Shown here piece after piece: positions 1 to 23,070 of a stretch of 56,140 nt of DNA. Within the stretch, counting starts at the first letter, position 1. Every line of letters begins with the position of its first letter. This DNA is from a virus (lineage: Duplodnaviria > Heunggongvirae > Uroviricota > Caudoviricetes), in IMG/VR virus record IMGVR_UViG_2563366805_000004, positions 1-56,140 of that record; one strand, given 5' to 3'. The notes under the pieces were generated by a model. That model saw nothing but the letters and a program-made list of their open reading frames with translations. It ran no database searches and was not told where the DNA came from. The translations under genes and the position numbers were made by a program.

Positions 1-1490
1 TCTGCGATGGTTTTGTAGCCAGCCTTGAACGCTTCTGATTTCTCATTAATCTCCTCTGGAAGTTGAATCATGACGAATCTTCGAGACGAACCATCGACGC
101 TATTTGCTGCAATAGTTGCATGTGCGGTAGTCGCCGATCCTGCAAAAAAATCCATCACTATATCGTCGCCTGCCGTGGTCATTTCCACTAGTGCCTGAAT
201 GATCGTTTCATCCTTCGGAAAATCAAAAACATGTGCTTCCATCAACGCATCAAGTCGAATTGATGCACCACGCCCATCTTGATAGAAAACGCTGTAAGCA
301 GCTTCTTTGTTTGCCTCGTGAAGATATACCTTTAATGTTGGCCGTGTCTTTTCGTCTGCACCAAATCGAATACGCTCATCTGCAAGCAACTCCTTCATGC
401 GCTCCGGGGCAAATGACCAGCCATTAGGATGCATATTCACTGGTTTCCCAGTTATTGGATGCAAAATTTCATAGCGCGAGCGCGATGTGGGCTGTGGTTT
501 GCGAAGATCACTTGCAAAATAGATACCTCGCTTGTCAACGTATTGATAGTGTTTATGCCGCTTACTTGGATCGCTATCGGAGAGGCTGCTATACCATTTT
601 CGCAAGCCAACTTCGACAGCCGCATCGTCACCACCAAACTTACGGCGCAACTCCGAATAGGTTTTCTCAATTTCGGTGAGACCCTTTTTCAGAATTTGCC
701 ACGAGGCTCCTCGCTCTTTAAGAGCATTCATACTACGCGCAAAGCAAATGATGTATTCGTGTGACGCCGATATAAAGCGCGAGTCATTCTTTCGTCCAGC
801 AGCCCAAACCATCGTACCTACAAAATTCTCTGCACCGAAAACTTCACTGGCTATACTTTTTAAGTTCTCAAATTCAGCATCATTGATGGAGATAAAGATG
901 GCACCATCTTCTTTTAATAACCCCCTGGCAAGACGAAGCCGTGAATAAATCATTGAGAGCCAATCGGAATGAAAGCGACCATTCGATACTGTGTTAGCCA
1001 CCAACCTATTTCCGTCTTCATCTACTTGATTTGAACGACGCAAGTATTCGTCTGCATCTTCGGCAAAGTCATCCTCGTAAATAAAGTCGTTCCCGGTGTT
1101 GTACGGCGGATCAATGTAGATCAGCTTCACCTTGCCCAGATACGTCTCCTGCAACAGCTTCAGTGCATCAAGGTTGTCTCCCTCAATGAACAGGTTCTTC
1201 GTCGTATCGAAGTCCACACTTTCCTCACGCACCGGGCGCAGTGTCTTGGCAATCGGCGCGTTAGCCGCGAGCAAGGCTTCGCGCTTACCGGGCCAGTTCA
1301 GGTGGTAGCGTTCTTGCGGTCCTTCCACAATCGACTCAGCAAGCTCCTGCCGCAGTTGGTCAAAATCCACCGCCAGTTTCACACTGCCGTCTTCGCCCTT
1401 GGCTTCGGTGATGCAGCCTGGAAACAGATCGCGAATGCGGGCGATGTTGTCCTGCGTGAGATTTGGTGAATGCATTTTTAGCTTTTCCAT
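1..1490 (-). CDS. Type III Mod-like N6-adenine DNA methyltransferase, partial (C-terminus beyond window start)
   Basis: Minus-strand frame opens at ATG 1490 (MEKLKMHSPNLTQDNIARIRDLFPGC) after a GAGGA RBS and has no stop before the window edge, so it is absent from the ORF track. Same frame carries DPPYNTGNDF near 1100 and DFFAGSATTA near 130-158, the motif IV-then-motif I order of beta-class Mod enzymes. Confidence 0.8.
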   Translation of the reverse strand, partial: MEKLKMHSPNLTQDNIARIRDLFPGCITEAKGEDGSVKLAVDFDQLRQELAESIVEGPQERYHLNWPGKREALLAANAPIAKTLRPVREESVDFDTTKNLFIEGDNLDALKLLQETYLGKVKLIYIDPPYNTGNDFIYEDDFAEDADEYLRRSNQVDEDGNRLVANTVSNGRFHSDWLSMIYSRLRLARGLLKEDGAIFISINDAEFENLKSIASEVFGAENFVGTMVWAAGRKNDSRFISASHEYIICFARSMNALKERGASWQILKKGLTEIEKTYSELRRKFGGDDAAVEVGLRKWYSSLSDSDPSKRHKHYQYVDKRGIYFASDLRKPQPTSRSRYEILHPITGKPVNMHPNGWSFAPERMKELLADERIRFGADEKTRPTLKVYLHEANKEAAYSVFYQDGRGASIRLDALMEAHVFDFPKDETIIQALVEMTTAGDDIVMDFFAGSATTAHATIAANSVDGSSRRFVMIQLPEEINEKSEAFKAGYKTIA

Positions 1491-1549
1491 GTTCTTTTCC
1501 TCTGGACGTCGCACTGTTGCGCGGCGTCCTAATTCTTTCTGGGCTGGTT

Positions 1550-2965
1550 TTATTCGGCGTCAGAATTGTTTTGGTGTTTGAGCTCGGCAAATTTGGCAGC
1601 CATCGTTGGGTTGCCGCGCGTGAGTCGCTTGACCGTCAGGTCTTCGGCTTTATCGTTGGCAAGCCGAAGATTGTTGGCGGACTTGTGCAGGGCTTCTTTG
1701 GTCTTTTCAAGGTCCTTGATGGCTTCGTCGATGCGCTTGACCGCTTCTTCAAACCCATCTGAAGCCAAACGCCAGTTGCGACCGAATGCGGTCTTGAAGT
1801 CATCGAGCTGGGTTTCAAATTGGGTGATGTCGATGTTCTGCGCCTTCACCAGCGCCAGCTCGGACTTGTATTGAAGTGACTTCATCGCTGCATTGCGTAG
1901 TAGCGTGATGATGGGGATGAAGAACTGAGGCCGAACGACATACATCTTCGGGTAGCGGTGAAACACATCAACGATCCCAGCGTTGTAAAGTTCACTGTCT
2001 GGCTCCAGCAGGGAAACCAGCACGGCGTATTCGCAACCTTTTTCGGTGCGGTCCTTGTCGAGCTCCTTGAAGAAGTCTTCGTTTTTCTTCTTGGTTGCTG
2101 TTTCGTCGCCTTCGTTCTTCATCTCGAACATGATCGAGACGATCTCGGTGCCTGCATCATCCATGTCCCGGAAGATGTAGTCGCCCTTGCTGCCGGTGCG
2201 AACGTCGTTGTCTTTTTCGAAGTAGGCCATTGGGAATGCGGTGGCTCGGAGACGGTTAAACTCAATCTCGCAATGCTGCTCCAGGGTTTCCCCAATCATC
2301 TTGGTCGACAGCCGTGCCTTCATGTCCCGCAGACGTACAATCTCACCATCGCGATCTTTAAGCTGTGTTTCGTATTTATCTTTGAGTGCAGTCTCGGCAA
2401 GTTGCTTTTCCAATGCTGCTCGCTCTAGTCCGTTCTTGAGTTCGTCACGCTCCTTCGTCACCACGCTGACCGCTTCGGTGAGCGCGAGCTTTTGTGTAAC
2501 TTCGCCCGCTGCAAGCTTGGCCTGCAGACGCTGAATCTCCGCATCCTTGGTGGCCTCGGCTTGCTGTAGCTCACTTAATCGCTTCGCCTCGGCCAGTTGA
2601 GCTTTAGTTTCAATCTCTTGCTTTGCTTTTTCCAGCGCGTTCCTCAGTGCATCGCGATCTTTTTCTACCGCGCTCAGCGCCTCACTGACAGCAAGCTTTT
2701 GCGCCACCTCTCCTGCATCCAGCCTAGCCTTTAATGCCTGGATTTCGGCATCTTTTTCAGAAGCAGCCTTCTGCAATTCGCTGGTAACCTTGGCTTGAGC
2801 CAGCTCGACCGCATTTTGCTTGTCCCTTTCGGCCAGCTCAAGGCGTTCATGTAACTGCTTCTCAAAGTCAGCATCGCGAACCTGTTTCAGAATGTCTGAG
2901 TAACCAGCTTCATCAATCTTGAAAGCCTTGCCGCAATGGGGGCAGATGATTTCATGCATAGTCAT
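1550..2965 (-). CDS. Zn-ribbon plus long coiled-coil protein, DUF2130-like
   Basis: 471-aa ORF with N-terminal CPHCGK zinc-ribbon motif, a long E/K/A/L-rich heptad region and a conserved C-terminal domain; start overlaps the upstream stop by 4 nt (ATGA); GAAGGA RBS. Confidence 0.6.
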
Positions 2966-4842
2966 TTTCCTTCTACCTTGGCCAAAATTTGCTGGAGCAT
3001 CTCTGGCACCGCCCCTGCGGATTTGAGTGTCGCCGTGCGGTATGCGAGTTGGTTCTTCGAGAGACTAATACCTGTGGCAATCTCGATTTCACTGCAAGCA
3101 GCTAGCCACTCAGGCCAGTTGGCTACGAGAAATGATTCCAGATGGTCTTCAAAAATGGCGACTGTGTCGCCTACGACAGCTTCCGGAAAATCTTCTTCAG
3201 CAATACCGAAGTATTTCAGAGCTGTCCGGTTTTCTCGGGCATTTTTTGCAAGTTCTTCATCGATCTTGTTTTGCTGTTTTCCTTTGGCTTTTGCTCGCGC
3301 CGCACATGCTCTGTCAGCATCGAAAAGCGCATAAACCGGGATACCGAGTGCGGACAGGATGGCATGGACAAGAGGAATCGACGTCTTGCCTCCGACTGGG
3401 ACAATGGAAATACCAGCGGCTTCAAGCGCACCATGAGATATTTTGTCGCCTATACCGTGGAACACCGATGACTCGGTGGTACCCTCCACAAGAAAAGCGC
3501 GATGGGCAAAGAGGGCTACAGCCAGTTGCTCTGAAACGATGCCATCTAACTGACGTTCGACAACATCACCATTTACTATCTGGTGCAGCCTGGTCTTCAC
3601 ATCATCAATGGAGGCAAAGTGGATAGTCACAGTCGGAGTCTCTCCAGATGATCGCGTCAATCTCCTGACATGATCAAAATGGCGGGCCTCAAGGAAATAA
3701 GGGCTGTGCGTTGCATAGGTTACTTGGATACACTTGTCGGGGTCTTCAACAAGTGAGCGGAGCACTTTTGCAAACGCCTGTGCCTGAATCGGGTGCTGAA
3801 AGAGCTCAGGTTCTTCAATTGCTAAACAGATGACTCCGTCGGCTGAAGCTGCTCCCGATTGTGCCAAGAGCTGGAGCGCCGAGATCAGAATAGTCCGCTG
3901 AAAACCATGCCCCTGTCGCTCTACCGCTGTTTCGGTTGTACCATCGAGCACGGATACTTCGAACGTGGTCTTGGGGGCTTTGAGCTCTACCTCTGCGGGA
4001 GAAACCGTGACCGCCCGACCGGGTGAGTATGAGCAAACAACCTCGTTAAGCTGCGTCGTCATCACCTTAAGCTGGGCTTGGAATTTCTCTTCGTAGACTT
4101 TCTGCTGCTTTGCTCTGGACTCCTCGACGATTGCCGCAATCTCCTGATCTGCCGCTGCACGATCAACGGAGCGTTCCAGGATGCGTCCGATGATGCTCGA
4201 TTTACCGTCAATGGACTCTTCGCTTGCACGAAGGTCTGCAGTCACCAGCACAAAATCGAAGAGGCCGCTCATCTTGCCGCCGCTGTTGAAACCAAAGAAG
4301 TTGGTTTGCAGCGATTCGGGGGCGTCTACGAGTAACTCTGTATGTGATGCCTCCCAGGTAGTCATTGCCTGGTCAATGGCTGTACCGGTAGTGGCTGTAG
4401 GAAGCTCCAGCTCTGGACGACTAGTTCTGAGATTTGTATAAAGCTCCCTCTTCGCCGCTACGCCATTTGCAGTTTTGATTACGTTGAACTCTGGGAATCC
4501 CTTTGCGTTTGCAGAGAGCACATCGGTGCCGTCAGCTGAACGGCGCTTCCACGCCGTGAATGTAGCTGCGCCCTCTGGAGTGTACTTACCAAGCGCCTCC
4601 CGATCCTTTTCGGTGAGATCTGCGAATGTGACTTGCACCTCGATGTCTTCGCTAGCTTCTCCAAAGGAGCAGTCTTTCTCTGTCAGCGAGCCGGGCTTGC
4701 CGTTGAAGAACCAATCGAGTGCATGTAGCACTGTCGACTTGCCAGCGCCGTTCGGCCCTATGAATGTCGTAACGGAGTCGAAGGGAATCGTGACGTCTTT
4801 GAGTGCCCGGAAGTTTTTGATGCGAACGGATTGAATCTTCAT
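2962..4842 (-). CDS. OLD-family ABC-ATPase / Toprim nuclease
   Basis: 626 aa; N-terminal [14 protein letters not shown]...[11 protein letters not shown] Walker A; C-terminal Toprim signatures FLVEGTTE and a DxD motif (ALFDAD). Confidence 0.8.
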
Positions 4843-4876
4843 TTCAGTTTTATTCCCTTATACCTGTTGTGATCTA

Positions 4877-5566
4877 TCAATGTTTGAGTTCTTCCAGTTC
4901 TATTTTCAACATTCGCAGTTTGGCGTTGATCTCTACCTTGCGGTTGAATTGTTTTTCTTTGGCAAGTCTGCTGGCTATTTTTTCAACCTCACGTTGCTTG
5001 GCTGCAACCAGTTCGACACGTGCGACCAAATCCGCGAGACTTTCTTGTAGGCGCGCGGGCGTGGAGATCAGGCTGTGAAGCAACTGCTCATACAAGCCGC
5101 CCAAGTCGAGTGCTAAGGGCATGGCGGCGCGCTCACAGTCACTCGGCAACCAGGCTGTTGCAAAGTAGTCACTCAAGACCCAACGGCTGGCGTCTGACTC
5201 ATTGGGGCGTTTGTACGCAGCGATCACCTTTGTTCGGCCATCAAAGCTCAGCTCGAAGATAATGGGAAACTGCACTGCGCCATCGATGCAACGCAAAACG
5301 TCCAGATTCAGCTCCGATGCCTTGAGCTGGATTGAGAAAATCTGAAGCTCTGGTACTCCCAGCCTGGCGGGCAGGTTGATCGTTTCCGGAGCCAACTTGT
5401 ATTGCCAGACGATCTGCTCCACCTGCTCGACGAACAAGTCCTTCAGCCTCGTATTGGCGCCGCTGTGTTCGTAGATCTTATTCTTTGGCAGGGTACGACC
5501 AAAGACAGCCTGCTTCGGATAGTTGATGAACGCGGTATTCGACTCAAATCGCGCAGACTGACTCAT
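4877..5566 (-). CDS. DUF4391-like protein
   Basis: 229-aa ORF, 4-nt overlap with helicase stop; family assignment is from recollection of this domain next to helicase/methyltransferase genes, not verified. Confidence 0.5.
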   Translation of the reverse strand: MSQSARFESNTAFINYPKQAVFGRTLPKNKIYEHSGANTRLKDLFVEQVEQIVWQYKLAPETINLPARLGVPELQIFSIQLKASELNLDVLRCIDGAVQFPIIFELSFDGRTKVIAAYKRPNESDASRWVLSDYFATAWLPSDCERAAMPLALDLGGLYEQLLHSLISTPARLQESLADLVARVELVAAKQREVEKIASRLAKEKQFNRKVEINAKLRMLKIELEELKH

Positions 5567-8500
5567 CCGGCCTCCTGAATCACGAGGAAGGTAATCAGTT
5601 CGAAGTCGTCCAGTCCGACGATAGTATTGACCAACGCGGTGGTCTTTCCGCTGCAGAAGAGGCTGTCCAGATCCTTATCTTCCTTCACCTCGATCATTGA
5701 GCGGATGGCCTTGCCAAGCAGGTCCGAATACATCTGCATCTTGCGGCCATCGGCCGTTTCCTTATTGAACAGGAGACAGGCATCTGTAATAGGCTGGGCT
5801 TGTCCCTTGCAGCAGGTGCGAACCAGATCCAGCAAACGTTTGACTTCGGTGTAATCGTGAATGACTTCCCCCTCGCGATTAATGTAGACGAGGTAATAAG
5901 GGTGCAGGCGGTTGTGCTGACTGACGTTGACGCTTGGATTCCGGTTGCGTAGCGTGAAGATTACACCCGGGCGTAGGCCCATCTCCGGCTTGGCAGGCAC
6001 TACGGCGTGCATCCCGCTTGGCACGTTGCTCATTTCGCCATTGGCCTTCACATAGTTGAGCAAGTCCATTCGGAAGTCATTGAGCCCGAGATCAGTAATC
6101 GACACTCCGGTTTTCAGGTCTTCCAGCTCAATCACTTCCTCTTGCAAACGTCGCAATTGCTCTTTGCGATAAGACACATCGTTGGCTTGGGCGCTCAGCA
6201 CATTGTCGTCACCGGTGGCAGTGACATCGGCAATCATCATTCGGCTTTCAACCCGTTCCTTCAGGTTGATGTATTCGTCGAGCGAGATGTCTGGCCAGTA
6301 GTTAACCAGTTGGATGCTGCTGTTGGGTGAGCCGATGCGATCCACACGGCCGAAGCGCTGGATGATGCGCACGGGATTCCAGTGGATGTCGTAGTTGATG
6401 AGGTAGTCGCAGTCCTGTAGGTTCTGGCCTTCAGAGATACAATCGGTGCCGATCAACACATCTATCTCTGCCTCCTCATTTGGCAGCACGATGGCTTTCT
6501 CCTTCGAGTGCGGCGAGAAGAGGGTGAGCAGTTCCTGGAAGTCATAGCTCTTCTTGAGCGTGCTCTTCGGTGCCCCTTTGCCGGTGACTTTTGCACTGTG
6601 CAAGGTCTGTGTAGCCAGCAATTCCGGAGCCAAATTGGCATACAGATAGTCAGCGGTGTCGGCGAAGGCGGTGAAGATCAGCACCTTCTTGTTGCCAGGA
6701 TTCAGCGGTGCTGCGATCTTTTCCAGAACCAGTGCTTTGAGATGCTGCAGTTTGGCATCATCGGCAGCCGTGATCTTGTTCATCGACGTCAGCAAAGCAT
6801 CAATGATTTCCAGATCGACCTTCAGCTCGTGCTCCCAGGAAGGCAAGTCCATATCGGCGAGGCTGATTTTGACCTTGCCACCGATCTCACTGTCGCCATT
6901 GCTTGGCAGGTCGTCGTCCGCGTCGAGGTTTTCTAACTGGTCGGTCAGGTCATTTATTCTGCTATCAATGCCACTGAGGCCGCCAGTCTCATTGAAAGTG
7001 CTGATCTTGGCCAGCGTATTAGTGTGGTTCGCGCGCAGGGACTTGAGCGTCAAGCGGAAAGACTCAATCGAGCTTTCCAGGCGCTTGAGCAGGTTGGTCG
7101 TCATCAATGCCTGCAAACTCTTTTCACGGTCGATTTGTTTAAGCTTGCCTTTCCCTGCAACCTGAGTGTCATACATCTCCTCGTACTTCTTGAGCCGACT
7201 GGGCAGAATGTAGCTGATCGGGGCATAAACGGCGAGCTTGAGCAAAGACAGCTGCTCGAAGATCTCGTTGAAGCTCATCACATCCGTTCGCTGCGTGAGC
7301 GGACAGTGGAACGACAAGGGTTTGCGGCGCTCGGGGAATTGGCCTATTTCCTTGGTGTCGTAGAAAGTCTGGATATGCTTGCGTGAGCGTGCGATGGTGA
7401 CGCTGTCGAGCAATTCGAAGAAGTCGAAGTCCAACGAGTCCAGGATGGCCCGCGCTGTGCGCTCTTCCGGTGGAAGCTTTGCCCATGCATTGAAGCTGGC
7501 CTGCGCACCACGGAAAATGTCCTCTACCGTCTTGCCGGTACGCAGCTTCTTGCTGAGGTTTTCGGAATCGCCTTCGTAGGCCAGTGCCAGTTGGTTGCGC
7601 AGGTCATTGAAGCGGTTGTTCACCGGGGTGGCCGAAAGCATCAGCACCTTGGTCTTCACGCCTTCCTTGATAACCTTGTTCATCAGCTTCTGGTAGCGGG
7701 TTTCCTTGTCCTTATAGGCGTCATTGTTGCGGAAGTTGTGTGACTCGTCGATGACGACGAGGTCGTAGTTGCCCCAGTTAATGCGATTCAGCGGTGTGCC
7801 AAATGACTCACCGCTCGTACGGCTGAGGTCGGTATGACAAAGTACGTCGTAGTTGAACCGGTCGCGAGCAAATATGTTGGTTTTGAGGTTACGGCTGTAG
7901 TTCAGCCAGTTGTCCGCCAGCTTCTTGGGGCATAACACCAGAACTGACTTGTTGCGCAGTTCGTAATACTTTATCACGGCCAGCGCGGTGAAAGTCTTGC
8001 CCAAGCCCACGCTGTCGGCCAAGATGCACCCGCTGTAGCTCTCAAGTTTGTTAATGATCCCGGTGGCAGCATCTTTCTGGTAATTGAAGAGTTTGTTCCA
8101 GATGAGCGTGTCTTGATAGCCTGTGCGGTCGTTCGGTAGGACATCCTCGTTGATGTCGTCCAGAAACTCATTGAAGATATTGTAGAGCATCAGGAAGTAG
8201 ATGCTCTCGGGCGAGTTTTCCTGGTAGACGGATGCAATGTGGTCGCAGATCTGCTCCGTTACATCCTCCAGCTTCTCAGGATCTTGCCAGATCTGGTTAA
8301 ACAGACTGAGGTAGGTCGCCGTAAACGTCGACTCGTCCATTTTGTTGACGAGGTTTGAGACAGCGTTGCCTTGCTGGTAGCCAAGATCGACGGCGGTAAA
8401 TCCGTGCAGTGGCATGTAGGCAGTCTCTGCGGCGGCGGCCTGAACACAAGCAAACTGCTGCATCGGAGCCTTGCTGCGATTGGACTTGAATGTTGCCTTG

Positions 8501-8844
8501 CGCCGCATCCAGTCCGCGCACTCTTTTGCAATTGCGCGCTGGGTCAGTTTGTTACGCAGCTGAATTTCGAACTCACTCCCGTACAAGCTCCGTTCGCGGT
8601 CAGCCTTCGGTATGTGAAATTCTCTGCGTTCCTTGCGAATCTTGTCGGTAACCTCGTTAGCGGTAAACGTCGGTGAGGTAAAGATGAATTGCAGCTCGTC
8701 GATTTTTTCCAGCTCTGCTTTGAGCGCTTCGAACGCGTACATCGAAAAGCAGGAGGCGGCGATCTTCAGGCGAGCACTAGGTTTGAGCGTCTGCTTTAGG
8801 TCGTCTCCGAGCAGGTGGTTGATATTGTCGATCAGTTCCATCAA
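5563..8844 (-). CDS. SNF2-family (SF2) helicase/translocase with ~250-aa N-terminal extension
   Basis: 1093 aa; motif I LADSVGLGKTFTA, motif II VVIDESHNFRN, motif III LMLSATPVNN, motif VI QRFGRVDRIGS; no recognisable nuclease motif seen by eye. Confidence 0.85.
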   Translation of the reverse strand: MMELIDNINHLLGDDLKQTLKPSARLKIAASCFSMYAFEALKAELEKIDELQFIFTSPTFTANEVTDKIRKERREFHIPKADRERSLYGSEFEIQLRNKLTQRAIAKECADWMRRKATFKSNRSKAPMQQFACVQAAAAETAYMPLHGFTAVDLGYQQGNAVSNLVNKMDESTFTATYLSLFNQIWQDPEKLEDVTEQICDHIASVYQENSPESIYFLMLYNIFNEFLDDINEDVLPNDRTGYQDTLIWNKLFNYQKDAATGIINKLESYSGCILADSVGLGKTFTALAVIKYYELRNKSVLVLCPKKLADNWLNYSRNLKTNIFARDRFNYDVLCHTDLSRTSGESFGTPLNRINWGNYDLVVIDESHNFRNNDAYKDKETRYQKLMNKVIKEGVKTKVLMLSATPVNNRFNDLRNQLALAYEGDSENLSKKLRTGKTVEDIFRGAQASFNAWAKLPPEERTARAILDSLDFDFFELLDSVTIARSRKHIQTFYDTKEIGQFPERRKPLSFHCPLTQRTDVMSFNEIFEQLSLLKLAVYAPISYILPSRLKKYEEMYDTQVAGKGKLKQIDREKSLQALMTTNLLKRLESSIESFRLTLKSLRANHTNTLAKISTFNETGGLSGIDSRINDLTDQLENLDADDDLPSNGDSEIGGKVKISLADMDLPSWEHELKVDLEIIDALLTSMNKITAADDAKLQHLKALVLEKIAAPLNPGNKKVLIFTAFADTADYLYANLAPELLATQTLHSAKVTGKGAPKSTLKKSYDFQELLTLFSPHSKEKAIVLPNEEAEIDVLIGTDCISEGQNLQDCDYLINYDIHWNPVRIIQRFGRVDRIGSPNSSIQLVNYWPDISLDEYINLKERVESRMMIADVTATGDDNVLSAQANDVSYRKEQLRRLQEEVIELEDLKTGVSITDLGLNDFRMDLLNYVKANGEMSNVPSGMHAVVPAKPEMGLRPGVIFTLRNRNPSVNVSQHNRLHPYYLVYINREGEVIHDYTEVKRLLDLVRTCCKGQAQPITDACLLFNKETADGRKMQMYSDLLGKAIRSMIEVKEDKDLDSLFCSGKTTALVNTIVGLDDFELITFLVIQEAG

Positions 8845-9746
8845 GAGTCAGCCTTTGTAGCGGCGCTATAGCCTGGTGCCAGTAAGGCGTTTTTCACGCC
8901 GTAAATCGCGAGATGATCTTTGAGCCATAAACGGTACTCCGGTCCATTTAGGCAATGATCGGGTGAGCAGTCAACCCGCCAGCGCTGCAACATATAGCCC
9001 ACTACAGCCGCGCGAACGCGCATCCTAATCGAGCCATCGGCCATCCCGTAGTCCATCTTGATGATCTCGGGGCGTTCAATGCGCGGGTGCGGCACGAAAT
9101 CCAACTCGACGATGCGCGTCCACTGGATATCATTATCCGGTCGTTCGTTGGCCTGTGGAACCTCTTCAAGCAATGTTGGCGCTTCGATGCGGGTGACGAC
9201 GAAATCCCGAAACTCTCCACTTTTGCGATCAAAGGCCCGGGCGTGCCAGCGCAGGCCGGTATCTACCAAAGCAAAGGGCACAATGACCCGTTCGGACTTG
9301 CCGCTGCTCATCGAGTGGTAGCGGATGGCGACGGGGCGCTTGGAGTGGATGGCTCGACAAATCACGGCCAACACATCCATCTTGGGTATGCTCAGGACTG
9401 TGGGGGATTCACAGGGTAGCAACGCCTGCATTGGGCCATTCACGCCATCGCCAAAGCCCAGAGCCAGCGCCGACAGAACACGCTGCGATGCGTGCTCGAA
9501 TAACGGAGAGAACGCCTGCCCGATACGATAGATCTTGTCGCTACCATCAAAGGTGATGTTATTCGGAGCGATTTCCCGGTACAAAGCCAAATCGCGAGTC
9601 GCTCCTGCTGGAGCAACGCCAAAGCGCTCAATCAAATCTGGGCGACCGATCTCACCGAAGAAGTAAAGCCGAAAATCGATGTAGGCCAGCCGTTCGCGCT
9701 GGACCTGGCTCAAGTCGTCAAGCCGCTTACAAGGGGGACTAGGCAT
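8841..9746 (-). CDS. WYL-domain transcriptional regulator, BrxR/CapW-like
   Basis: 301 aa; N-terminal wHTH signature ERLAYIDFRLYFFGEIGRPDLIERFGVAPAGATRDLALYREIAP; stop overlaps helicase start (ATGA); first gene of the co-directional operon. Confidence 0.8.
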   Translation of the reverse strand: MPSPPCKRLDDLSQVQRERLAYIDFRLYFFGEIGRPDLIERFGVAPAGATRDLALYREIAPNNITFDGSDKIYRIGQAFSPLFEHASQRVLSALALGFGDGVNGPMQALLPCESPTVLSIPKMDVLAVICRAIHSKRPVAIRYHSMSSGKSERVIVPFALVDTGLRWHARAFDRKSGEFRDFVVTRIEAPTLLEEVPQANERPDNDIQWTRIVELDFVPHPRIERPEIIKMDYGMADGSIRMRVRAAVVGYMLQRWRVDCSPDHCLNGPEYRLWLKDHLAIYGVKNALLAPGYSAATKADS

Positions 9747-10090
9747 GAATCATCACTATAGGGAAAAATTAAAATTTAATACGGTAATCAATAAAGTGCC
9801 ATGATTATAATCAAATTGATGATAATCGACATTAATATTTATGTAAAAGCAAGAGATGACGTTTCAAACGTAGACAGTCATCGTATTAGCCGATGTTTCT
9901 ACAACGTTAGATTAATGCCTAACAACTATAAAACCTTACTGCCCAATGCCCTATCGCCCCTCGGACAATTTGTCCTTACCCACTGATCTGGCTTGAGGAT
10001 GAGGGGGACAGAATAACCTAACGACTTAGTAGCCGGGATCACCGGCGGAAGGGGTCTAACACCTACCTTAACTCAAATTAATTTCAGTTA

Positions 10091-10250
10091 TATATCATCC
10101 CTCTGAACATATCCGATTAACGGCGGAATCTCTCGATCCTGCCGTTTTTGTATTATTTTTCAGAGGAGTAGTAATGAACAATTCTGAAGGTTTGAAGCCA
10201 TTTCAGCAGTCGCTTGATGGTCTGCCACAATGGGTCTCAGAACGAGTCAT
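10091..10250 (+). repeat. Copy A of ~160-bp direct repeat (5' leader plus first codons of yfjP-type GTPase gene)
   Basis: About 80% identical by eye to 17285-17445; contains a hairpin followed by a T-run just upstream of a GAGGAG RBS. Confidence 0.6.
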
Positions 10251-11037
10251 GCAGCAAATTCGTCAACTGACAAACTACGAACCAGTGATCGGCATCATGG
10301 GTAAAACCGGTGTTGGGAAGAGCAGTCTGTGCAATGCCCTGTTTGCTGGAGAGGTATCGCCGGTCAGCGATGTGGCGGCCTGTACTCGTGAGCCACTGCG
10401 CTTTCGACTGCAAGTTGGCGACCGCCATATGACGCTGGTGGACCTGCCCGGCGTAGGCGAAAGTGGCGCTCGCGATATCGAGTATGCTGCGCTGTATCGC
10501 GAACAACTCCCCCGGCTCGACCTGGTGCTGTGGTTGATCAAGGCTGATGACCGGGCGCTGGCAGTAGATGAACACTTTTATCATCAGGTGATTGGGGAGG
10601 CATACCGGCATAAGGTGCTGTTTGTTATCAGCCAGTCGGATAAGGCCGAACCCACCAGCGGTGGGAGACCATTGTCCATCACGCAGAAGCAGAACATCAG
10701 CCGCAAAATCTGTCTGCTGCATGAGCTGTTCCAGCCCGTACATCCAGTATGTGCCGTGTCGGTCCGTCTTCAGTGGGGGCTGCGGGTGATGGCCGAGCGA
10801 ATGATTAAGTGTCTGCCACGTGAGGCCACCAGCCCGGTGGTGTCGCAACTCCAGCCTTCCTTTCGCACGACGTTAGTCCGGGAGCAGGCTCGTAGCGATT
10901 TTGGTGAAACCATCGGTGCTGTACTCGATAGCATCAGTGCCTTTCCCCTGATACCCGCCCCGGTGCGGGCCGTCATTCAGGCCGTGCGCACCACTGTGGT
11001 GTCAGTGGCCCGCGCCGTCTGGGATTTCTTCTTCTAA
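10174..11037 (+). CDS. yfjP: YfjP/YeeP/YkfA-family GTPase
   Basis: 287 aa; P-loop GIMGKTGVGKSSLCNAL and DLPG motif; length and order match the CP4-57 backbone. Confidence 0.85.
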   Translation: MNNSEGLKPFQQSLDGLPQWVSERVMQQIRQLTNYEPVIGIMGKTGVGKSSLCNALFAGEVSPVSDVAACTREPLRFRLQVGDRHMTLVDLPGVGESGARDIEYAALYREQLPRLDLVLWLIKADDRALAVDEHFYHQVIGEAYRHKVLFVISQSDKAEPTSGGRPLSITQKQNISRKICLLHELFQPVHPVCAVSVRLQWGLRVMAERMIKCLPREATSPVVSQLQPSFRTTLVREQARSDFGETIGAVLDSISAFPLIPAPVRAVIQAVRTTVVSVARAVWDFFF

Positions 11038-11128
11038 GTATTTAACCCATTCCTGTTATTTCCCTGACCCTGTCGCCGATGCGACGGGGATCCCTTTTAT
11101 TTGTTTTCCCGTTATGAGGAGTCTGCTT

Positions 11129-11950
11129 ATGACCCGTCTGGCTTCGCGCTTTGGCGCAGCAAATTTTATCCGTCGCGACCGCCCTTTAACCCGTGAGGAG
11201 CTGTTTCGCGTGGTGCCCAGTGTGTTCAGCGAGGACAAACATGAGTCCCGCAGTGAGCGTTATACCTATATACCCACCATATCCCTGCTGGGCAGCCTAC
11301 AGCGAGAAGGCTTCCAGCCATTCTTTGCCTGTCAGACCCGGGTACGTGACCCGGGTCGTCGGGAACACACAAAGCACATGCTGCGCCTGCGTCGGGAGGG
11401 ACAGATTACCGGTAAGCAGGTGCCGGAAATCATTTTGCTGAATTCACATGATGGCACCAGTTCGTACCAGATGTTGCCGGGACTATTTCGTGCGGTTTGT
11501 CAGAACGGGCTCGTCTGTGGTGAGTCATTTGGCGAGGTGCGGGTGCCGCACAAGGGGGACGTGGTAAGTCAAGTGATTGAAGGCGCGTATGAAGTGCTGG
11601 GCATTTTTGACCGTGTGGAGGAGAAGCGGGATGCGATGCAGTCGTTGCTGTTGCCGCCACCGGCGCAGCAGGCACTGGCAAAAGCCGCGCTGACGTACCG
11701 CTTTGGTGAAGACCACCAGCCGGTGACTGAATCGCAGATCCTCTCCCCGCGCCGCTGGCAGGATGAGAGTAACGACCTGTGGACCACGTATCAGCGTATT
11801 CAGGAGAACCTGATTAAGGGCGGGCTCAGTGGCCGTAATGCCAAAGGGGGACGGTCACATACCCGGGCCGTTCGCGGTATAGACGGGGACGTGAAACTTA
11901 ACCGGGCACTGTGGGTGATGGCGGAAGCGATGCTCACGCAACTGCGGTGA
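11129..11950 (+). CDS. yfjQ: YfjQ-like protein (DUF932 family)
   Basis: Start moved to MTRLASRFGAA (GAGGAG RBS 8 nt upstream); sequence matches recollected YfjQ/YeeQ N-terminus. Confidence 0.75.
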   Translation: MTRLASRFGAANFIRRDRPLTREELFRVVPSVFSEDKHESRSERYTYIPTISLLGSLQREGFQPFFACQTRVRDPGRREHTKHMLRLRREGQITGKQVPEIILLNSHDGTSSYQMLPGLFRAVCQNGLVCGESFGEVRVPHKGDVVSQVIEGAYEVLGIFDRVEEKRDAMQSLLLPPPAQQALAKAALTYRFGEDHQPVTESQILSPRRWQDESNDLWTTYQRIQENLIKGGLSGRNAKGGRSHTRAVRGIDGDVKLNRALWVMAEAMLTQLR

Positions 11951-12166: not shown

Positions 12167-12868
12167 ATGACACAGGCAGAACGCCGCCATGACCGGCTGG
12201 CTGTCAGACTGTCACTGATAATCAGCCGTCTGGTGGCGGGGGAAACGCTGAGTGTGCATAAGCTGGCCGCTGAGTTTGGTGTGTCGGTGCGCACGCTGCG
12301 GCGTGATTTTCGCGAGCGGCTGATGTATCTGGACCTGGAGTATCAGTCCGGATATTGCCGCTTACGTACTGCTGGCAGTGAAATGCAGATGGTGCCCGAC
12401 GTGCTTATCTTTGCTCACCGCAGCGGGCTGGCCGGACTTTTTCCAGGCCTTGACCGCCGTCTGGTGAACGCTCTGCTGATGTGCGATGAGTCTCCCTGCG
12501 TGATAGCACCAGCTAATCCGGTTCCTTCGCCCTCAGGAGCATTGTCTTTCTGGAGACTGATTCAGGCCATTACCGGGCGCAGGCGGGTGACGCTGATTGC
12601 GGAGGGGCGACGCTGTGAGCGCCTGGCTCCCTGCCGATTACTCATACACCAGCAGACCTGGTATCTGGTGGCTGAACACTACGGGCATATCGCCGTATTC
12701 ACACTTGATGAAATCCATCTGATTCATCCTTTGCAGGAGACTTTTCGCCGCAATGACAGTCTGTGCCGTCTGACTGAAGACCCGGTTTTCATTCAGGCCT
12801 TACCCCATTTTCGCTTTATCCAGCAGTCACTGCTTACGTTTGTTCCGGCTGACAGCCCACCGGAATAG
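12167..12868 (+). CDS. yfjR: YfjR-like HTH transcriptional regulator
   Basis: 233 aa; N-terminal HTH ([21 protein letters not shown]); position after yfjQ. Confidence 0.7.
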
Positions 12869-19956: not shown

Positions 19957-20032
19957 CCCTTAAGTTCCTAGCCGCTTATCTATAACTATGGAAAAATGTT
20001 AACCCTGACTGTATGTTAACAAAGGGATGTAT

Positions 20033-21241
20033 ATGTCGGTTTTTCATAACTGGCTGCTTGATATCGCAAGCGGGAATTACTTTATCTACATCAAACGCCT
20101 TTCTGCAAACGACACAGGCGCAACAGGTGGCCATCAGGTCGGACTTTATATCCCCTCAAATATCGTTGAAAAGCTTTTTCCATCTATCAATCATACTCGC
20201 GAACTGAACCCTTCAGTCTTCCTTACTGCGCATGTATCATCCCATGATTGCCCTGATACCCAAGCACGCGCAATTTATTACAACAACCGTTATTTTGGTA
20301 AGACCCGAAACGAAAAAAGAATTACGCGCTGGGGGAGAGGAAGTCCATTACAGAACCCTGAAAATACAGGAGCCCTCACAATTCTTGCTTTCAGGTTAAA
20401 CGAACAGAACACTGACTGTTCCGAGGTAGATATATGGGTCTGCGTCAATCCCGATGAAGAGGATATCATCGAGTCTGCTATTGGCGAAATCATACCTGGA
20501 ACCCTAATTTCCGGCCCTGCCGGACAAATTTTGGGCGGATTGTCTCTTCAGCAAACTCCAGTAAATCATAAATATGTTATTCCTGAAGACTGGAAGAAGC
20601 GTTTTCCTTCTGGAAACGAAATTATTCAATATGCTGCTGGCCATTATGCTAAAAACTCCAAGGATCCAGATGAGCAACTGATTGACCGTCGGCGTGTCGA
20701 GTATGATATTTTTCTACTCGTCGAGGAATTACATGTTCTTGATATTATTAAGAAAGGATTCGATTCTGTAGATGAGTTTATTGCATTAGCCAACTCTGTC
20801 AGTAATCGACGTAAATCAAGGGCAGGCAAATCACTTGAACTTCACCTAGAGAAGCTTTTTATCGAGCACGGACTACGGCATTTCTCCACTCAGGCAGTTA
20901 CTGAAGGTAATAAAAAACCAGATTTCCTGTTTCCTTCAGCAGAGGCATATCATAACGTTGAATTTCCTGTAGAAAACTTACGTATGCTGGCAGTAAAGAC
21001 CACCTGCAAAGATCGCTGGCGTCAGATACTGAATGAAGCAGATAAAATCCATCAGGTACATTTATTTACACTGCAAGAAGGTGTTTCTTCAGCACAATAC
21101 CGAGAAATGAAAGATGCGGGTGTCAGACTCGTTGTACCATCAACTTTACATAAAAAATACCCAGAAGCAGTTAGAGAAGAATTAATAACGCTCGGAGCAT
21201 TCATTACTGAGCTGATAGAGCTTTACGCTGAACTATCATAG
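20033..21241 (+). CDS. ecoRIIR: EcoRII-like Type IIE restriction endonuclease
   Basis: Near full-length match to recollected EcoRII (MSVFHN…RLSANDTG…GGHQVGLYIPS…VENLRMLAVKTTCKDRWRQILNEADKIHQVHLFTLQEG). Confidence 0.9.
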   Translation: MSVFHNWLLDIASGNYFIYIKRLSANDTGATGGHQVGLYIPSNIVEKLFPSINHTRELNPSVFLTAHVSSHDCPDTQARAIYYNNRYFGKTRNEKRITRWGRGSPLQNPENTGALTILAFRLNEQNTDCSEVDIWVCVNPDEEDIIESAIGEIIPGTLISGPAGQILGGLSLQQTPVNHKYVIPEDWKKRFPSGNEIIQYAAGHYAKNSKDPDEQLIDRRRVEYDIFLLVEELHVLDIIKKGFDSVDEFIALANSVSNRRKSRAGKSLELHLEKLFIEHGLRHFSTQAVTEGNKKPDFLFPSAEAYHNVEFPVENLRMLAVKTTCKDRWRQILNEADKIHQVHLFTLQEGVSSAQYREMKDAGVRLVVPSTLHKKYPEAVREELITLGAFITELIELYAELS

Positions 21242-21275: not shown

Positions 21276-22709
21276 TTAAGGCTGCCCAGTCTTACCAGCA
21301 TCAGCAGAAACAGCTTTGAGGATATAGGGTTCCAGAAGTCTGGCAACAGCTTCAAATACTGGCACCACAACTGAGTTACCGAACTGCCGATATGACTGAG
21401 TATCTGAAACCGGAATACGGAATGGTTTCCCTCCAGGTTTTTCAAATCCCATAAGGCGTGCGCACTCTCGGGGAGTCAGCCTGCGTGGTCGACGAGCCTG
21501 ATTACTCTCATTCATAAAGTCAGCCTCTCCCGTTGCCATATCCCAACCACGATCAATAAGAATTTCTGATCCGTCTTTGTGATATCTGGCAGAAAGTGTG
21601 CGTGCAATGCTTTCCTTATTCTCAGGATTGACCAACCCAAAGCCAAAACCATTCCCCTTGGCTGCATGCTTTTTGGCGTAGTTATAAAGGTACTCCCATA
21701 GTTTTGGCGTAAGTATATATTTACTGTCGACTACAGGCTCCAGCAATTCACCAAATGATGGGCGGTGTTCCGGATAAAAACGACTGATATCACGCAAGGT
21801 AAACCCCTTGTGAATATTCAGATCTCGTCTAAATCCGACCAGAACAATACGTTCACGATGCTGAGGCAAAAAATGCTTCCCATCGATAATCTTTGGATCG
21901 TTTTTTCCCATTTCTGCAGCATCGGCAACTTCGTAGCCCAGCTCGTCAAGGGTCTCCATAATGACTTTGAAAGTTTTACCCTTATCATGGCTCTTCAGAT
22001 TTTTGACATTTTCCAGCACAAAAATTGCCGGTTTTTTTGCTCGTATAATACGTGCCACGTCAAAAAAAAGTGTTCCTTGTGCTTCACATTCAAAACCATG
22101 CGCACGACCAAGTGAGTTTTTCTTACTAACACCAGCAAGGCTAAATGGCTGGCACGGGAACCCCGCAAGAAGCACATCATGATCCGGCACATGCTCATCA
22201 ATATATGCATAAGCATCCGTTTCCAATACATCGGTTTTATCACTCAGCGTGACTTCCCGAATATCGAGATTGAATTTATGCACCTGTTCATCGTTAAACC
22301 AGTTGGCCTTGTATGTACGCACAGCATCTTTATTCCATTCACTGGTAAAAACACACTGGCCTCCAATGGCCTCAAAACCTTTCCGTATCCCTCCAATTCC
22401 AGCAAATAAGTCAATGAAGCGGAAAGCATATTCCGGATGGTTTGCAGGTGGTTCTGGTAGCATCTTACGCAGAAGAGACTCTTCTACTGAAGTCAACGAT
22501 TTTGGTAAACACTTGCCATTAATCCAGCGGTTAATGGTTTCACGGCTCCACTCATTTTTTCCGACTTTTCTCAGTAATTCAGCCACATACTTCTGATCAT
22601 AGATTTCCAGCACTTTCTCGATAAGCTTTTTATCATTTTCCTGTCGCAGCTTTTCTTCCGCCTCGGCTTCCTTCAGCAGATGCTGTGCCAACACTTCAAA
22701 TTCAGACAT
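21276..22709 (-). CDS. ecoRIIM: M.EcoRII/Dcm-type C5-cytosine DNA methyltransferase
   Basis: Start moved to MSEFEVLAQ (GGAGG RBS); motifs FAGIGG, PCQPFS, ENV; near-identical to recollected M.EcoRII and Dcm. Confidence 0.9.
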
Positions 22710-23070
22710 AATTCCTCCAAGGGGTCTAATGGGTGAAACTTTATCACTCATTCAACCCAGAAGGAAATGTTTTATCTGGATATTTAAACAGTGACTACAA
22801 CGTAATCTAGCACTGGTGATGCTTTGTTAGGCATAGAGAATCATTCTATATACGACTAATGACAGAAAAACAGCAGACAAGTAGTTTGTTCATAAATTAA
22901 CGCATACTATGTGTCTACGGTTTTCGAGACCGGTCCAATCATCAAACGAAACATAAAATTAGCTCACATTATGAGGAAAAGTATCTTTTTTGTACTATGT
23001 AAATTCAAAGGCTTAGCCTCATTTCTCCGATGGTTTTCTCAACACTACTGGTTGTGAGCCCTTGCAATGA

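What the first reader, a model, noticed from the sequence alone, without database searches (positions are those of the whole stretch)
8841..9800. BrxR-like regulator positioned as the operon gatekeeper
WYL-domain regulators of this family repress downstream defence genes and are thought to respond to ligands. The ATGA overlap with the helicase and the AT-rich divergent intergenic region upstream (9747-10170) fit autoregulated control of the whole operon.
Basis: partly seen in the sequence, partly recalled or inferred. Interest (0 to 1): 0.4.

Follow-up and report, generated by a model that had tools for sequence, protein, structure and literature searches.

The report
BrxR repressor heading a restriction operon
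The gene at 8841-9746 is an ordinary but well-preserved member of the known BrxR family of defence-gene repressors.

Summary
The ORF 8841-9746 (minus strand, 301 aa) is a genuine BrxR-family wHTH-WYL-WCX regulator. It is 49% identical over its full length to the crystallised E. fergusonii BrxR (PDB 7QFZ, E=4e-89). The DNA-binding arginine and all four ssDNA-contacting residues described for CapW are conserved.

About 70 nt upstream lies a 25-bp palindrome, GATTATCATC-AATTT-GATTATAATC (9827-9803). It overlaps the best sigma-70-like promoter in the region. It has the same 10-5-10 geometry as the co-crystallised Acinetobacter BrxR site.

The core ATCA-N3-TGAT occurs once, at a similar distance (71-107 nt upstream), in 68 of 78 usable upstream regions (the window's own plus 77 orthologues at 76-96% aa identity, in Entero-, Beta- and Gammaproteobacteria). 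Everything further upstream differs between loci.

The cargo is interchangeable. Here it is a SNF2-type helicase, DUF4391, an inserted OLD nuclease plus DUF2130, and a type III Mod (Res lies beyond the window). Elsewhere it is mostly GmrSD and/or type I R-M.

Corrections to the finding: the brxR/helicase junction is TGATG (1-nt overlap), not ATGA. Only about 155 bp of the intergenic region travels with brxR.

Repression, ssDNA sensing and control of the distal genes are inferred, not shown. Verdict: new member of a known kind, modest interest.

The parts
8841..9746 (-). brxR: 301-aa wHTH-WYL-WCX regulator. Approximate domain spans: wHTH residues 12-75 = 9522-9713; WYL residues 124-191 = 9174-9377; WCX residues 192-295 = 8862-9173.
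   Evidence: ORF. Pfam WYL. PDB 7QFZ E=4e-89 over residues 9-295, CapW 9C5G 3e-36, BrxR_Acin 7T8K 3e-24. 49% identity to BrxR_Efer. RefSeq names the identical protein WP_016243777.1 'helix-turn-helix transcriptional regulator'.
9803..9827 (.). Predicted BrxR operator. On the minus strand it reads GATTATCATC-AATTT-GATTATAATC: 10-5-10 with 9 of 10 arm positions matching, or 12-1-12 with one mismatch.
   Evidence: Inverted repeat I2. An arm of 12 or more with at most 1 mismatch occurs in 1.5% of 1000 dinucleotide shuffles of the intergenic region. The core ATCA-N3-TGAT occurs once, 71-107 nt upstream, in 68 of 78 usable upstream regions (the window's plus 77 orthologues). Information-content footprint. 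A 15-nt block is invariant across Enterobacterales while the flanks diverge. It is the only operator-like site in the operon.
9819..9847 (-). Best sigma-70-like promoter: -35 TTTACA (9847-9842), 17-nt spacer, -10 TATCAT (9824-9819). The -10 lies inside the left operator arm.
   Evidence: Matches 10 of 12 positions. It is the only such hit on either strand in 1-10300. This is a consensus match only; the transcription start site is not known.
9847..9852 (-). Alternative -35 (TTGCTT). This block is conserved across the whole orthologue set. In most orthologues it is followed 17 nt later by CATAAT or CATGAT, directly 5' of the operator.
   Evidence: Information-content profile and consensus; enterobacterial alignment. 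In the window the matching -10 position reads TCGATT, which is poor, so which promoter is used is undecided.
5563..8841 (-). SNF2-type helicase, 1092 aa ('helicase-related protein'). Its start shares one base with the brxR stop.
   Evidence: Pfam SNF2-rel_dom, ResIII and Helicase_C. PADLOC model C3a139 'HKD+Snf2' matches end to end at 1e-127. No HxKx4D motif is present.
4877..5566 (-). DUF4391 protein, 229 aa. ATGA overlap with the helicase.
   Evidence: Pfam DUF4391 at 3.5e-56. Always paired with the helicase in relatives.
2962..4842 (-). OLD-family ATPase/TOPRIM nuclease, 626 aa. First gene of an inserted two-gene cassette.
   Evidence: Pfam AAA_15 plus OLD-like_TOPRIM. PADLOC Old at 7.5e-59. 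This slot is variable between strains.
1550..2965 (-). DUF2130 protein, 471 aa. ATGA overlap with the OLD gene.
   Evidence: Pfam DUF2130 at 1.7e-90.
1..1490 (-). 5' part of a type III-like DNA methyltransferase (mod), cut off by the window edge. In related E. coli the res gene follows.
   Evidence: Translation with the DPPYNTG motif. Pfam N6_N4_Mtase. Annotated Mod plus type III Res in strains H6, 0H26 and CFT073.

Best explanation
brxR encodes a homodimeric wHTH-WYL-WCX repressor of the BrxR/CapW family. In the resting cell the dimer binds the 25-bp palindrome at 9803-9827. That site overlaps the -10/+1 region of the brxR promoter, or lies directly downstream of it. Binding there blocks RNA polymerase, so brxR and the co-oriented, tightly packed genes behind it stay at a low level. 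Those genes are the SNF2-type helicase, DUF4391, OLD nuclease, DUF2130 and type III mod, with res beyond the window. This is negative autoregulation.

When single-stranded DNA appears (DNA damage, or a phage infection that is being restricted), it binds the basic pocket of the WYL domain (S145, R166, R170, R186; RWHAR motif). That rotates the wHTH domains off the operator and raises expression of the defence genes.

Shown here: family membership by sequence, residue conservation, the operator and its conservation, and the gene arrangement.

Inferred from characterised relatives: dimerisation, DNA binding, repression, ssDNA as the ligand, and the extent of the transcript.
For: - Family: 7QFZ (BrxR_Efer) E=4e-89 over residues 9-295; CapW and BrxR_Acin also match over their full length. 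Identity to BrxR_Efer is 49% over 289 aa.
- Residues: BrxR_Efer R17, essential for DNA binding and repression (PMC9122601), corresponds to R19 here. RlCapW S144/R164/R168/R184, which contact ssDNA (PMC11662680), correspond to S145/R166/R170/R186 here (alignment). These five residues are conserved in 99-100% of the 81 aligned sequences, the window's plus 80 orthologues.
- Operator: a palindrome with 12-nt arms, reached by 1.5% of shuffles. Its length and 10-5-10 layout with an A/T-rich centre match the co-crystallised BrxR_Acin site ATACCGTAAA-AATAA-TTTACTGTAT (PMC9122589). It is close to the pEFER R-BOX1 layout of 11-5-11.
- Conservation: the core is present once, at a similar distance (71-107 nt upstream), in 68 of 78 usable upstream regions. 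Seven more have a one-mismatch version. Upstream genes are unrelated between loci, so the promoter, operator and brxR travel as a unit.
- Position: the operator overlaps the only 10-of-12 promoter match in 10.3 kb. This fits a repressor, not an activator.
- Operon: overlaps of 1, 4 and 4 nt and gaps of 34 and 59 nt. No intergenic terminator-like site on the minus strand.
- Published precedent: BrxR homologues repress downstream BREX and other defence genes and bind inverted repeats at their own promoter (PMC9122601, PMC9122589). BrxR WYL-pocket mutants blunt induction during restricted infection (bioRxiv 10.1101/2025.11.13.688357).
Against: - Nothing here is experimental for this locus.
- The operator sequence is unrelated to the two characterised BrxR sites, so binding is inferred from geometry and co-conservation only.
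- Which promoter is used is ambiguous. TTTACA-17-TATCAT is good in the window but weaker in CFT073-type relatives. The family-wide TTGCTT -35 has a poor -10 in the window.
- The distal genes lie behind 34-nt and 59-nt gaps, and in CFT073 behind about 290 nt. They could be transcribed independently.
- ssDNA binding has been shown biochemically for CapW, not for any BrxR.
- In Acinetobacter the brxR gene also has a cis role that is separable from the protein (PMC9122589). That was not examined here.
Confidence: 0.8

Rival explanations
1. BrxR autoregulates only a short unit (brxR, helicase, DUF4391). The inserted OLD+DUF2130 cassette and the type III mod/res genes are expressed from their own promoters, so BrxR does not gate the whole operon.
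For: - There are gaps of 34 nt before OLD and 59 nt before mod, with a GC dip at 4650-5100.
- The slot after DUF4391 is filled differently in different strains. In CFT073 mod lies about 290 nt downstream with an opposite-strand ORF in between.
- The helicase-DUF4391-Mod-Res unit exists without any BrxR on other plasmids.
- In pEFER a second R-BOX was needed in front of brxA (PMC9122601). No second operator exists here.
Against: - No minus-strand promoter-like match of 9 of 12 or better, and no intergenic terminator-like site, lies between 1 and 8840.
- All genes are co-oriented and closely packed.
- In the 0H26 and Raoultella variants the slot gene overlaps DUF4391 by 4 nt.
Confidence: 0.3
2. 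The protein acts as a WYL-type transcriptional activator, like DriD or PafBC. It would switch the operon on when ssDNA is bound, rather than acting as a repressor.
For: The same wHTH-WYL-WCX architecture and the same ssDNA pocket are used by activators (PMC11662680, PMC10853764).
Against: - It is far closer in sequence to the repressors: 7QFZ 4e-89 and CapW 3e-36, against PafBC 3e-06.
- It carries the repressor-type RWH(V/A)R motif.
- The operator overlaps -10/+1 rather than lying upstream of -35.
Confidence: 0.04
3. The palindrome is not the BrxR site. It would be the site of a host factor, or part of the regulation of the divergent GTPase operon, or an accident of AT-rich sequence.
For: - The region is AT-rich, and both arms look like -10 boxes.
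- About 1.5% of shuffles give an equally long palindrome.
- A second WYL/DeoR regulator is encoded 2.4 kb away at 12167-12868.
Against: - The palindrome co-occurs with brxR in Beta- and Gammaproteobacteria, where the GTPase operon and the upstream genes are absent.
- In CFT073 the GTPase side is replaced but the palindrome is kept.
- No Fur-box match within 3 mismatches.
- The GTPase start is about 350 bp away.
Confidence: 0.05

Closest known systems
BrxR of Escherichia fergusonii pEFER (PDB 7QFZ; Picton et al. 2022, PMC9122601)
   Same: - 49% identity over the full length, with the same wHTH-WYL-WCX layout.
- R17 is conserved (R19 here).
- It is the first gene of a co-oriented defence operon.
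- An imperfect inverted repeat with an A/T-rich centre lies at or just downstream of the -10.
- That paper already lists type III, type I and type IV restriction systems among BrxR-associated cargo.
   Different: - The operator sequence is unrelated: GAAACCTACTG-AAAAA-CAGTAGGTTGC there against GATTATCATC-AATTT-GATTATAATC here.
- The cargo is BREX plus BrxU there, and helicase/DUF4391/OLD/DUF2130/type III R-M here.
- No second R-BOX lies inside the operon here.
- brxR and the next gene overlap here, whereas they are separated by 9 nt in pEFER.
BrxR of Acinetobacter sp. NEB394 (PDB 7T8K/7T8L; Luyten et al. 2022, PMC9122589)
   Same: - Homologous over residues 19-261 (E=3.5e-24).
- Its co-crystallised site is 25 bp, 10-5-10, with 9 of 10 half-site positions matching and an A/T-rich centre. 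This is the same geometry as 9803-9827.
   Different: - The site there overlaps the -35 (-51 to -27), and here the -10/+1.
- The half-site sequence is different.
- The relationship is more distant: E=3.5e-24 against 4.3e-89 for BrxR_Efer.
CapW, the CBASS-associated repressor (PDB 7TB5, 7TB6, 9C5G; PMC9122588, PMC11662680)
   Same: - Same fold family (E=3e-36 to 4e-32).
- All four ssDNA-contacting residues and the RWHxR motif are conserved.
- It therefore provides the mechanistic model for de-repression.
   Different: - It regulates a divergently transcribed CBASS operon rather than heading a co-oriented restriction operon.
- It is less similar in sequence than BrxR_Efer.
Controller (C) proteins of type II restriction-modification systems
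   Same: They work alike at the system level. Each is a small autoregulated DNA-binding protein encoded at the head of a restriction operon, binding a palindromic box in its own promoter to time or limit nuclease expression. This comparison is from established knowledge and was not tested here.
   Different: C proteins are unrelated proteins of about 80 aa with an Xre-type HTH, no ligand-sensing domain, and mixed activator/repressor logic. BrxR is not a member of that family.

Membership tests
BrxR/CapW family (wHTH-WYL-WCX repressors) | Three-domain architecture (N-terminal winged HTH, central WYL, C-terminal WCX) in a protein of about 290-300 aa | tested here: met
   Full-length alignment to the solved structures 7QFZ (residues 9-295 against 7-294), 9C5G, 7TB6 and 7T8K. 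Pfam WYL at residues 124-191. No structure was predicted here.
BrxR/CapW family (wHTH-WYL-WCX repressors) | Conserved RWHVR motif and basic ligand pocket in the WYL domain (S, R, R, R contacting ssDNA) | tested here: met
   RWHAR at 166-170, plus S145 and R186. These align to RlCapW S144/R164/R168/R184 (residue roles from PMC11662680). Conserved in 99-100% of the 81 aligned sequences. The V-to-A change is a minority variant (V in 86%).
BrxR/CapW family (wHTH-WYL-WCX repressors) | N-terminal arginine needed for DNA binding (R17 in BrxR_Efer) | tested here: met
   R19 aligns with R17 and is invariant in the aligned sequences.
BrxR/CapW family (wHTH-WYL-WCX repressors) | Encoded directly upstream of, or next to, anti-phage defence genes | tested here: met
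   It is followed by the SNF2-type helicase, DUF4391, OLD nuclease, DUF2130 and type III mod. Orthologues are followed by GmrSD and type I R-M.
BrxR/CapW family (wHTH-WYL-WCX repressors) | Pseudo-palindromic target of about 25 bp (10-11 bp arms, about 5-bp A/T-rich spacer) in its own promoter | tested here: met
   The candidate site at 9803-9827 has this geometry, overlaps the promoter and is conserved. Actual binding was not tested.
BrxR/CapW family (wHTH-WYL-WCX repressors) | Homodimer that binds the site and represses transcription, and is released by a ligand (ssDNA) | not testable with these tools
   Needs EMSA, reporter assays and ssDNA competition. Inferred from PMC9122601, PMC9122589, PMC11662680 and bioRxiv 10.1101/2025.11.13.688357.
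WYL-domain transcriptional activators (DriD, PafBC) | Binding site upstream of or overlapping -35 that recruits RNA polymerase; canonical WYL motif; closer sequence relationship to DriD or PafBC | tested here: not met
   PafBC matches only at 3e-06 and over the WYL domain alone, and DriD is not among the hits. The candidate site overlaps -10/+1.
BREX system (as the regulated cargo) | Presence of brxC, pglZ and pglX or other core BREX genes downstream | tested here: not met
   No BREX core gene lies downstream. The helicase hits BrxHI/HII models only partially, at 1e-25. The 'Brx' in the name refers to the regulator family only.

The most novel reading that the evidence does not exclude
This BrxR clade and its 25-bp operator form a nearly invariant, portable regulatory head. 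The protein is 76-96% identical from E. coli to Comamonas, Nitrosomonas and Stenotrophomonas. The head is exchanged horizontally with interchangeable restriction cargo, on chromosomal islands and on plasmids, most of them conjugative. Here it has captured a conserved but uncharacterised four-gene type III-like system: a SNF2-type helicase without an HKD motif, DUF4391, Mod and Res. That system has a cassette slot, here holding OLD+DUF2130. The result would place a composite restriction island under one ssDNA-sensing switch, so that restriction itself (DNA ends and ssDNA made by Res, OLD or the helicase) feeds back to boost expression.
Probability: 0.4. Interest if true: 0.45.

Novelty: new member of a known kind. 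Interest (0 to 1): 0.27.

Why it matters
The result adds little conceptually. BrxR-family repressors in front of BREX, type I, III and IV restriction and other systems were described in 2022, and their ssDNA-sensing logic in 2024-2025.

What is useful is practical:
- It gives a precise, testable operator (9803-9827; clade consensus about ATGTCATCA-NTT-TGATGATAT) and promoter for a BrxR clade that is widespread in Enterobacterales chromosomes and plasmids.
- It shows that the regulator and operator travel as one module with swappable cargo.
- It flags the cargo here as an experimentally untouched system that could be switched on simply by deleting brxR. That cargo is helicase/DUF4391/type III R-M with an embedded OLD+DUF2130 cassette.

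Tried and rejected
- Second operator (an R-BOX2 analogue) inside the operon. The core ATCA-N3-TGAT occurs only at 9810-9820 and at 38763-38773. The latter lies inside prophage tail genes and is at chance level (32 of 100 shuffles give 2 or more). Rejected.
- Fur box or another host site. No Fur consensus match within 3 mismatches.
- Structured 5' leader or riboswitch for brxR. The fold of 9744-9815 is no better than shuffles (z=+0.7). There is no Rfam family in the region.
- tRNA-adjacent insertion. A palindrome resembling a tRNA T-arm lies upstream of several beta-proteobacterial brxR genes, but ARAGORN finds no tRNA there.
- Relationship between BrxR and the second WYL regulator at 12167-12868. 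No significant similarity.
- Catalytic PLD (HKD) motif in the helicase, as suggested by the PADLOC model name. Absent.
- Phage-borne copies. Only two distant Acinetobacter phage hits at 26% identity.
- Literature on DUF4391. Only 2 papers mention it, neither functionally.
- Structure prediction and the large protein-database searches were deliberately not run. A 49%-identical crystal structure aligned end to end already settles the fold. The only alignment sources allowed for the predictor would have cost a whole-database search for a confirmatory result.
Full report
**1. What is at the coordinates**

The minus strand carries an intact ORF at 8841-9746 (301 aa). The finding's upper limit, 9800, reaches 54 nt into the untranslated leader.

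Pfam finds a WYL domain at residues 124-191 (E=3e-14). PADLOC finds only generic 'WYL' models, and NCBIfam finds nothing.

The decisive result is the search of solved structures:
- The protein aligns end to end (residues 9-295) with the E. fergusonii BrxR crystal structure 7QFZ at E=4.3e-89.
- It aligns with three CapW structures at 3e-36 to 4e-32.
- It aligns with Acinetobacter BrxR (7T8K) at 3.5e-24.
- The activator PafBC matches only through the WYL domain, at 3e-06.

Direct BLASTP against BrxR translated from pEFER gives 49% identity over 289 residues.

The window is E. coli. The identical gene is annotated as 'helix-turn-helix transcriptional regulator' WP_016243777.1 in strain 0H26 and seven other complete genomes. 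A version about 93% identical in DNA sits in the leuX island of CFT073 and many other complete E. coli genomes, many of them urinary isolates.

**2. Functional residues**

BrxR_Efer R17 is essential for DNA binding and repression (PMC9122601). It corresponds to R19 here.

The four residues that contact ssDNA in the CapW-ssDNA structure are RlCapW S144, R164, R168 and R184 (PMC11662680). The PDB chain index is offset by +2. They align to S145, R166, R170 and R186 here. The repressor-type RWHVR motif reads RWHAR.

I aligned the window's protein with 80 orthologues. R19, S145, W167, H168, R170 and R186 are invariant, and R166 is conserved in 99%. The wHTH and WYL domains are the best conserved parts (93-95% mean column conservation).

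**3. Junctions and the intergenic region**

The brxR stop and the helicase ATG share a single base (TGATG at 8839-8843). The stated ATGA overlap is therefore wrong in detail, although translational coupling remains plausible. Yersinia, Pectobacterium and other relatives have TAATG at this position, which fixes ATG 8841 as the helicase start. Genuine ATGA overlaps occur at helicase/DUF4391 and at OLD/DUF2130. DUF4391 to OLD is a 34-nt gap, and DUF2130 to mod is a 59-nt gap.

The intergenic region 9747-10173 is 38.6% GC, against 55-59% in the neighbouring genes. The GTPase gene at 10174 is divergent.

Only about 155 bp next to brxR (to about 9901) is shared with CFT073-type loci. In those loci the GTPase side is replaced by a BrxA pseudogene remnant.

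**4. Promoter and operator**

The only 10-of-12 sigma-70-like match on either strand of 1-10300 is TTTACA-17-TATCAT at 9847-9819 on the minus strand.

Overlapping its -10 is a 25-bp palindrome at 9827-9803, GATTATCATC-AATTT-GATTATAATC. A palindrome with arms this long occurs in 1.5% of dinucleotide shuffles of the region.

Its geometry matches the characterised sites:
- It equals the co-crystallised Acinetobacter BrxR site ATACCGTAAA-AATAA-TTTACTGTAT in length and layout: 25 bp, 10-5-10, 9 of 10 arm positions matching, A/T-rich centre.
- It resembles pEFER R-BOX1, GAAACCTACTG-AAAAA-CAGTAGGTTGC, which I read from the plasmid sequence.
- The sequences themselves are unrelated, as expected from the diverged recognition helices.

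**5. Comparative test**

A scan of one genome per species found 217 relatives. The best 80 are 76-96% identical in protein and come from Enterobacterales, many Beta- and Gammaproteobacteria, and a few MAGs of doubtful binning.

In 68 of 78 usable upstream regions (the window's own plus 77 orthologues), the core ATCA-N3-TGAT occurs exactly once within an extended palindrome. (L070 has a second, non-palindromic match.) The site starts 71-107 nt upstream of the start codon. Seven of the remaining ten have a one-mismatch version at the same distance.

Anchoring on the site gives a clear information-content footprint. It consists of a conserved TTGCTT about 35 nt upstream, a CATAAT-like hexamer, and then the operator. 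The sequence on either side shows little conservation. The clade consensus is about ATAATGTCATCA-NTT-TGATGATATAAA.

Within Enterobacterales a 15-nt block, TCATCAATTTGATTA, is invariant, while the flanks in Citrobacter and Buttiauxella are unalignable.

The genes upstream of brxR are unrelated from locus to locus. So the conserved unit starts at the promoter.

Which -10 is used in the window is undecided. The family-wide -35 (TTGCTT, 9852-9847) is followed at 17 nt by a poor hexamer here. Under either promoter the operator covers -10/+1 or sits immediately downstream of it, which is a repressor position.

No second operator-like site lies in the operon. There is no Fur box, no structured leader and no Rfam element.

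**6. What is gated**

Downstream of brxR lie, in order:
- A 1092-aa SNF2-type helicase. PADLOC 'HKD+Snf2' matches at 1e-127, yet the protein has no HxKx4D motif.
- DUF4391.
- An OLD-family ATPase/TOPRIM nuclease.
- DUF2130.
- The 5' 1490 nt of a type III-like methyltransferase, which runs off the window.

In related E. coli the type III res gene follows mod.

The unit helicase-DUF4391-Mod-Res is conserved without BrxR on plasmids of E. coli, Acinetobacter and Mycolicibacterium. With BrxR it occurs on a conjugative IncFII plasmid of Raoultella.

The slot between DUF4391 and mod varies between strains:
- OLD+DUF2130 in the window and in strains H5 and H6.
- A UvrD-like ATP-binding protein in 0H26, Yersinia and Pectobacterium.
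- Nothing in CFT073.

In the other orthologous loci the same regulator and operator are followed by a GmrSD type IV enzyme (20 loci) and/or type I hsdM-hsdS-(insert)-hsdR (38-48 ORFs per subunit family).

Homologues at 60% identity or more occur on 98 plasmids. Of all 225 matching plasmids, 130 are predicted conjugative. Practically none occur in phages.

This matches the picture published by Picton et al. (PMC9122601, section read). They reported BrxR homologues with BREX, type IV, type I and type III restriction and other systems, often with inverted repeats upstream.

**7. Mechanism and its status**

The best explanation is negative autoregulation by a BrxR dimer bound at 9803-9827. Relief would come when ssDNA binds the WYL pocket, as shown biochemically and structurally for CapW (PMC11662680). 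Pocket mutants support the same logic for a Vibrio BrxR during restricted infection (bioRxiv 10.1101/2025.11.13.688357).

Shown here:
- Membership by sequence.
- Residue conservation.
- The operator and its phylogenetic footprint.
- The operon layout.

Inferred:
- Binding and repression.
- The ligand.
- That the distal genes (OLD, DUF2130, mod, res) depend on this promoter. No internal promoter or terminator signal was detected, but the scan is crude and the gaps leave room for one.

The main rival is control of only the proximal genes. An activator role, or a non-BrxR function for the palindrome, is unlikely for the reasons given under the rival explanations.

**8. Verdict**

This is a new member of a known kind. 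The new details are the clade-specific operator, the evidence that regulator plus operator form a portable head for interchangeable restriction cargo, and the uncharacterised nature of the cargo here. Interest is modest.

Noticed in passing
window 10095-10176 (+), just upstream of the GTPase gene (start 10174): There is a strongly folding RNA leader (dG -26.4 kcal/mol, z=-4.7, 0 of 200 shuffles as good). A hairpin AACGGCGG...CUGCCGUU followed by a U-run is nested in an outer helix CCUCUGAA/UUCAGAGG. The 3' strand of that outer helix contains the GAGGAG Shine-Dalgarno of the GTPase gene. It looks like a terminator or SD-sequestering leader for the CP4-57-like yfjP-type operon.
   Followed up: partly
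window 9049-10300; e.g. L005 (E. coli NCTC11121) 5001-6252: About 175 complete E. coli genomes carry an approximately 86%-identical remnant. It consists of the promoter, the operator and the 5' two-thirds of brxR next to the GTPase gene, and is cut by an IS5-family element. In NCTC11121 it lies beside the heat-resistance island (kefB-GI, psiE-GI). No gene is annotated on the remnant.
   Followed up: partly
window 5563-8841 (-): The helicase matches the PADLOC model named 'HKD+Snf2' end to end, but it has no HxKx4D phospholipase-D motif anywhere. If an N-terminal PLD-like domain is present, it is probably catalytically dead.
   Followed up: partly
window 1-8841 (-); L089, L090, L091, L087: The four-gene unit of SNF2-type helicase, DUF4391, type III-like Mod and Res-like DEAD/DEAH helicase is conserved from E. 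coli plasmids to Acinetobacter and Mycolicibacterium. The held literature mentions DUF4391 in only 2 papers, neither functionally. It appears to be an uncharacterised elaboration of type III R-M.
   Followed up: partly
window 1550-4842 (-): The OLD-family nuclease plus DUF2130 form a two-gene cassette inserted between DUF4391 and mod. The same slot holds a UvrD-like ATP-binding protein in other strains and is empty in CFT073. This is reminiscent of the accessory genes (Abi_C, BstXI-like) found between hsdS and hsdR in the type I cargo of orthologous loci.
   Followed up: partly
window 12167-12868 (+): A second, unrelated WYL-domain regulator (DeoR-type HTH plus WYL, 233 aa, YfjR-like) lies 2.4 kb from brxR in the divergent GTPase-DUF932 operon. 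It has no significant similarity to BrxR.
   Followed up: partly
L023, L047, L054, L076, L077, L083 and others, about 190-230 nt upstream of brxR: A second conserved palindrome, GTTCGATTCC-N7-GGAATYGAAC, lies about 130 nt upstream of the operator in at least 8 beta- and gammaproteobacterial loci. No tRNA gene is there, and its function is unknown. It could be the end of a mobile unit or a recombination site.
   Followed up: partly
L088 (K. pneumoniae pS-3002cz) 8529-11654: On this NDM-1 plasmid, a 78%-identical brxR followed by a DUF262/GmrSD gene sits immediately after a Tn7-like tnsE fragment. This hints that the module also rides in the cargo region of Tn7-like transposons.
   Followed up: no
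window 17300-56140: The rest of the window holds further island genes and a prophage. The island genes are an antirestriction gene, RadC/JAB, DUF987, a YeeU/CbtA toxin-antitoxin pair, an EcoRII-like endonuclease (20027-21241) with a Dcm-type methylase (21276-22751), and a GIY-YIG protein. A lambdoid prophage then contributes tail, head, terminase and lysis genes. An IS009 sRNA (Rfam RF02111) lies at 24002-24200 (-).
   Followed up: partly
window 1504-1529: A GC-rich inverted repeat, GGACGTCGCACTGTTGCGCGGCGTCC, lies in the 59-nt gap between DUF2130 and mod. On the operon (minus) strand it forms a hairpin without a U-run. It could be a processing or stability element, or a weak attenuator, between the cassette and mod.
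   Followed up: no
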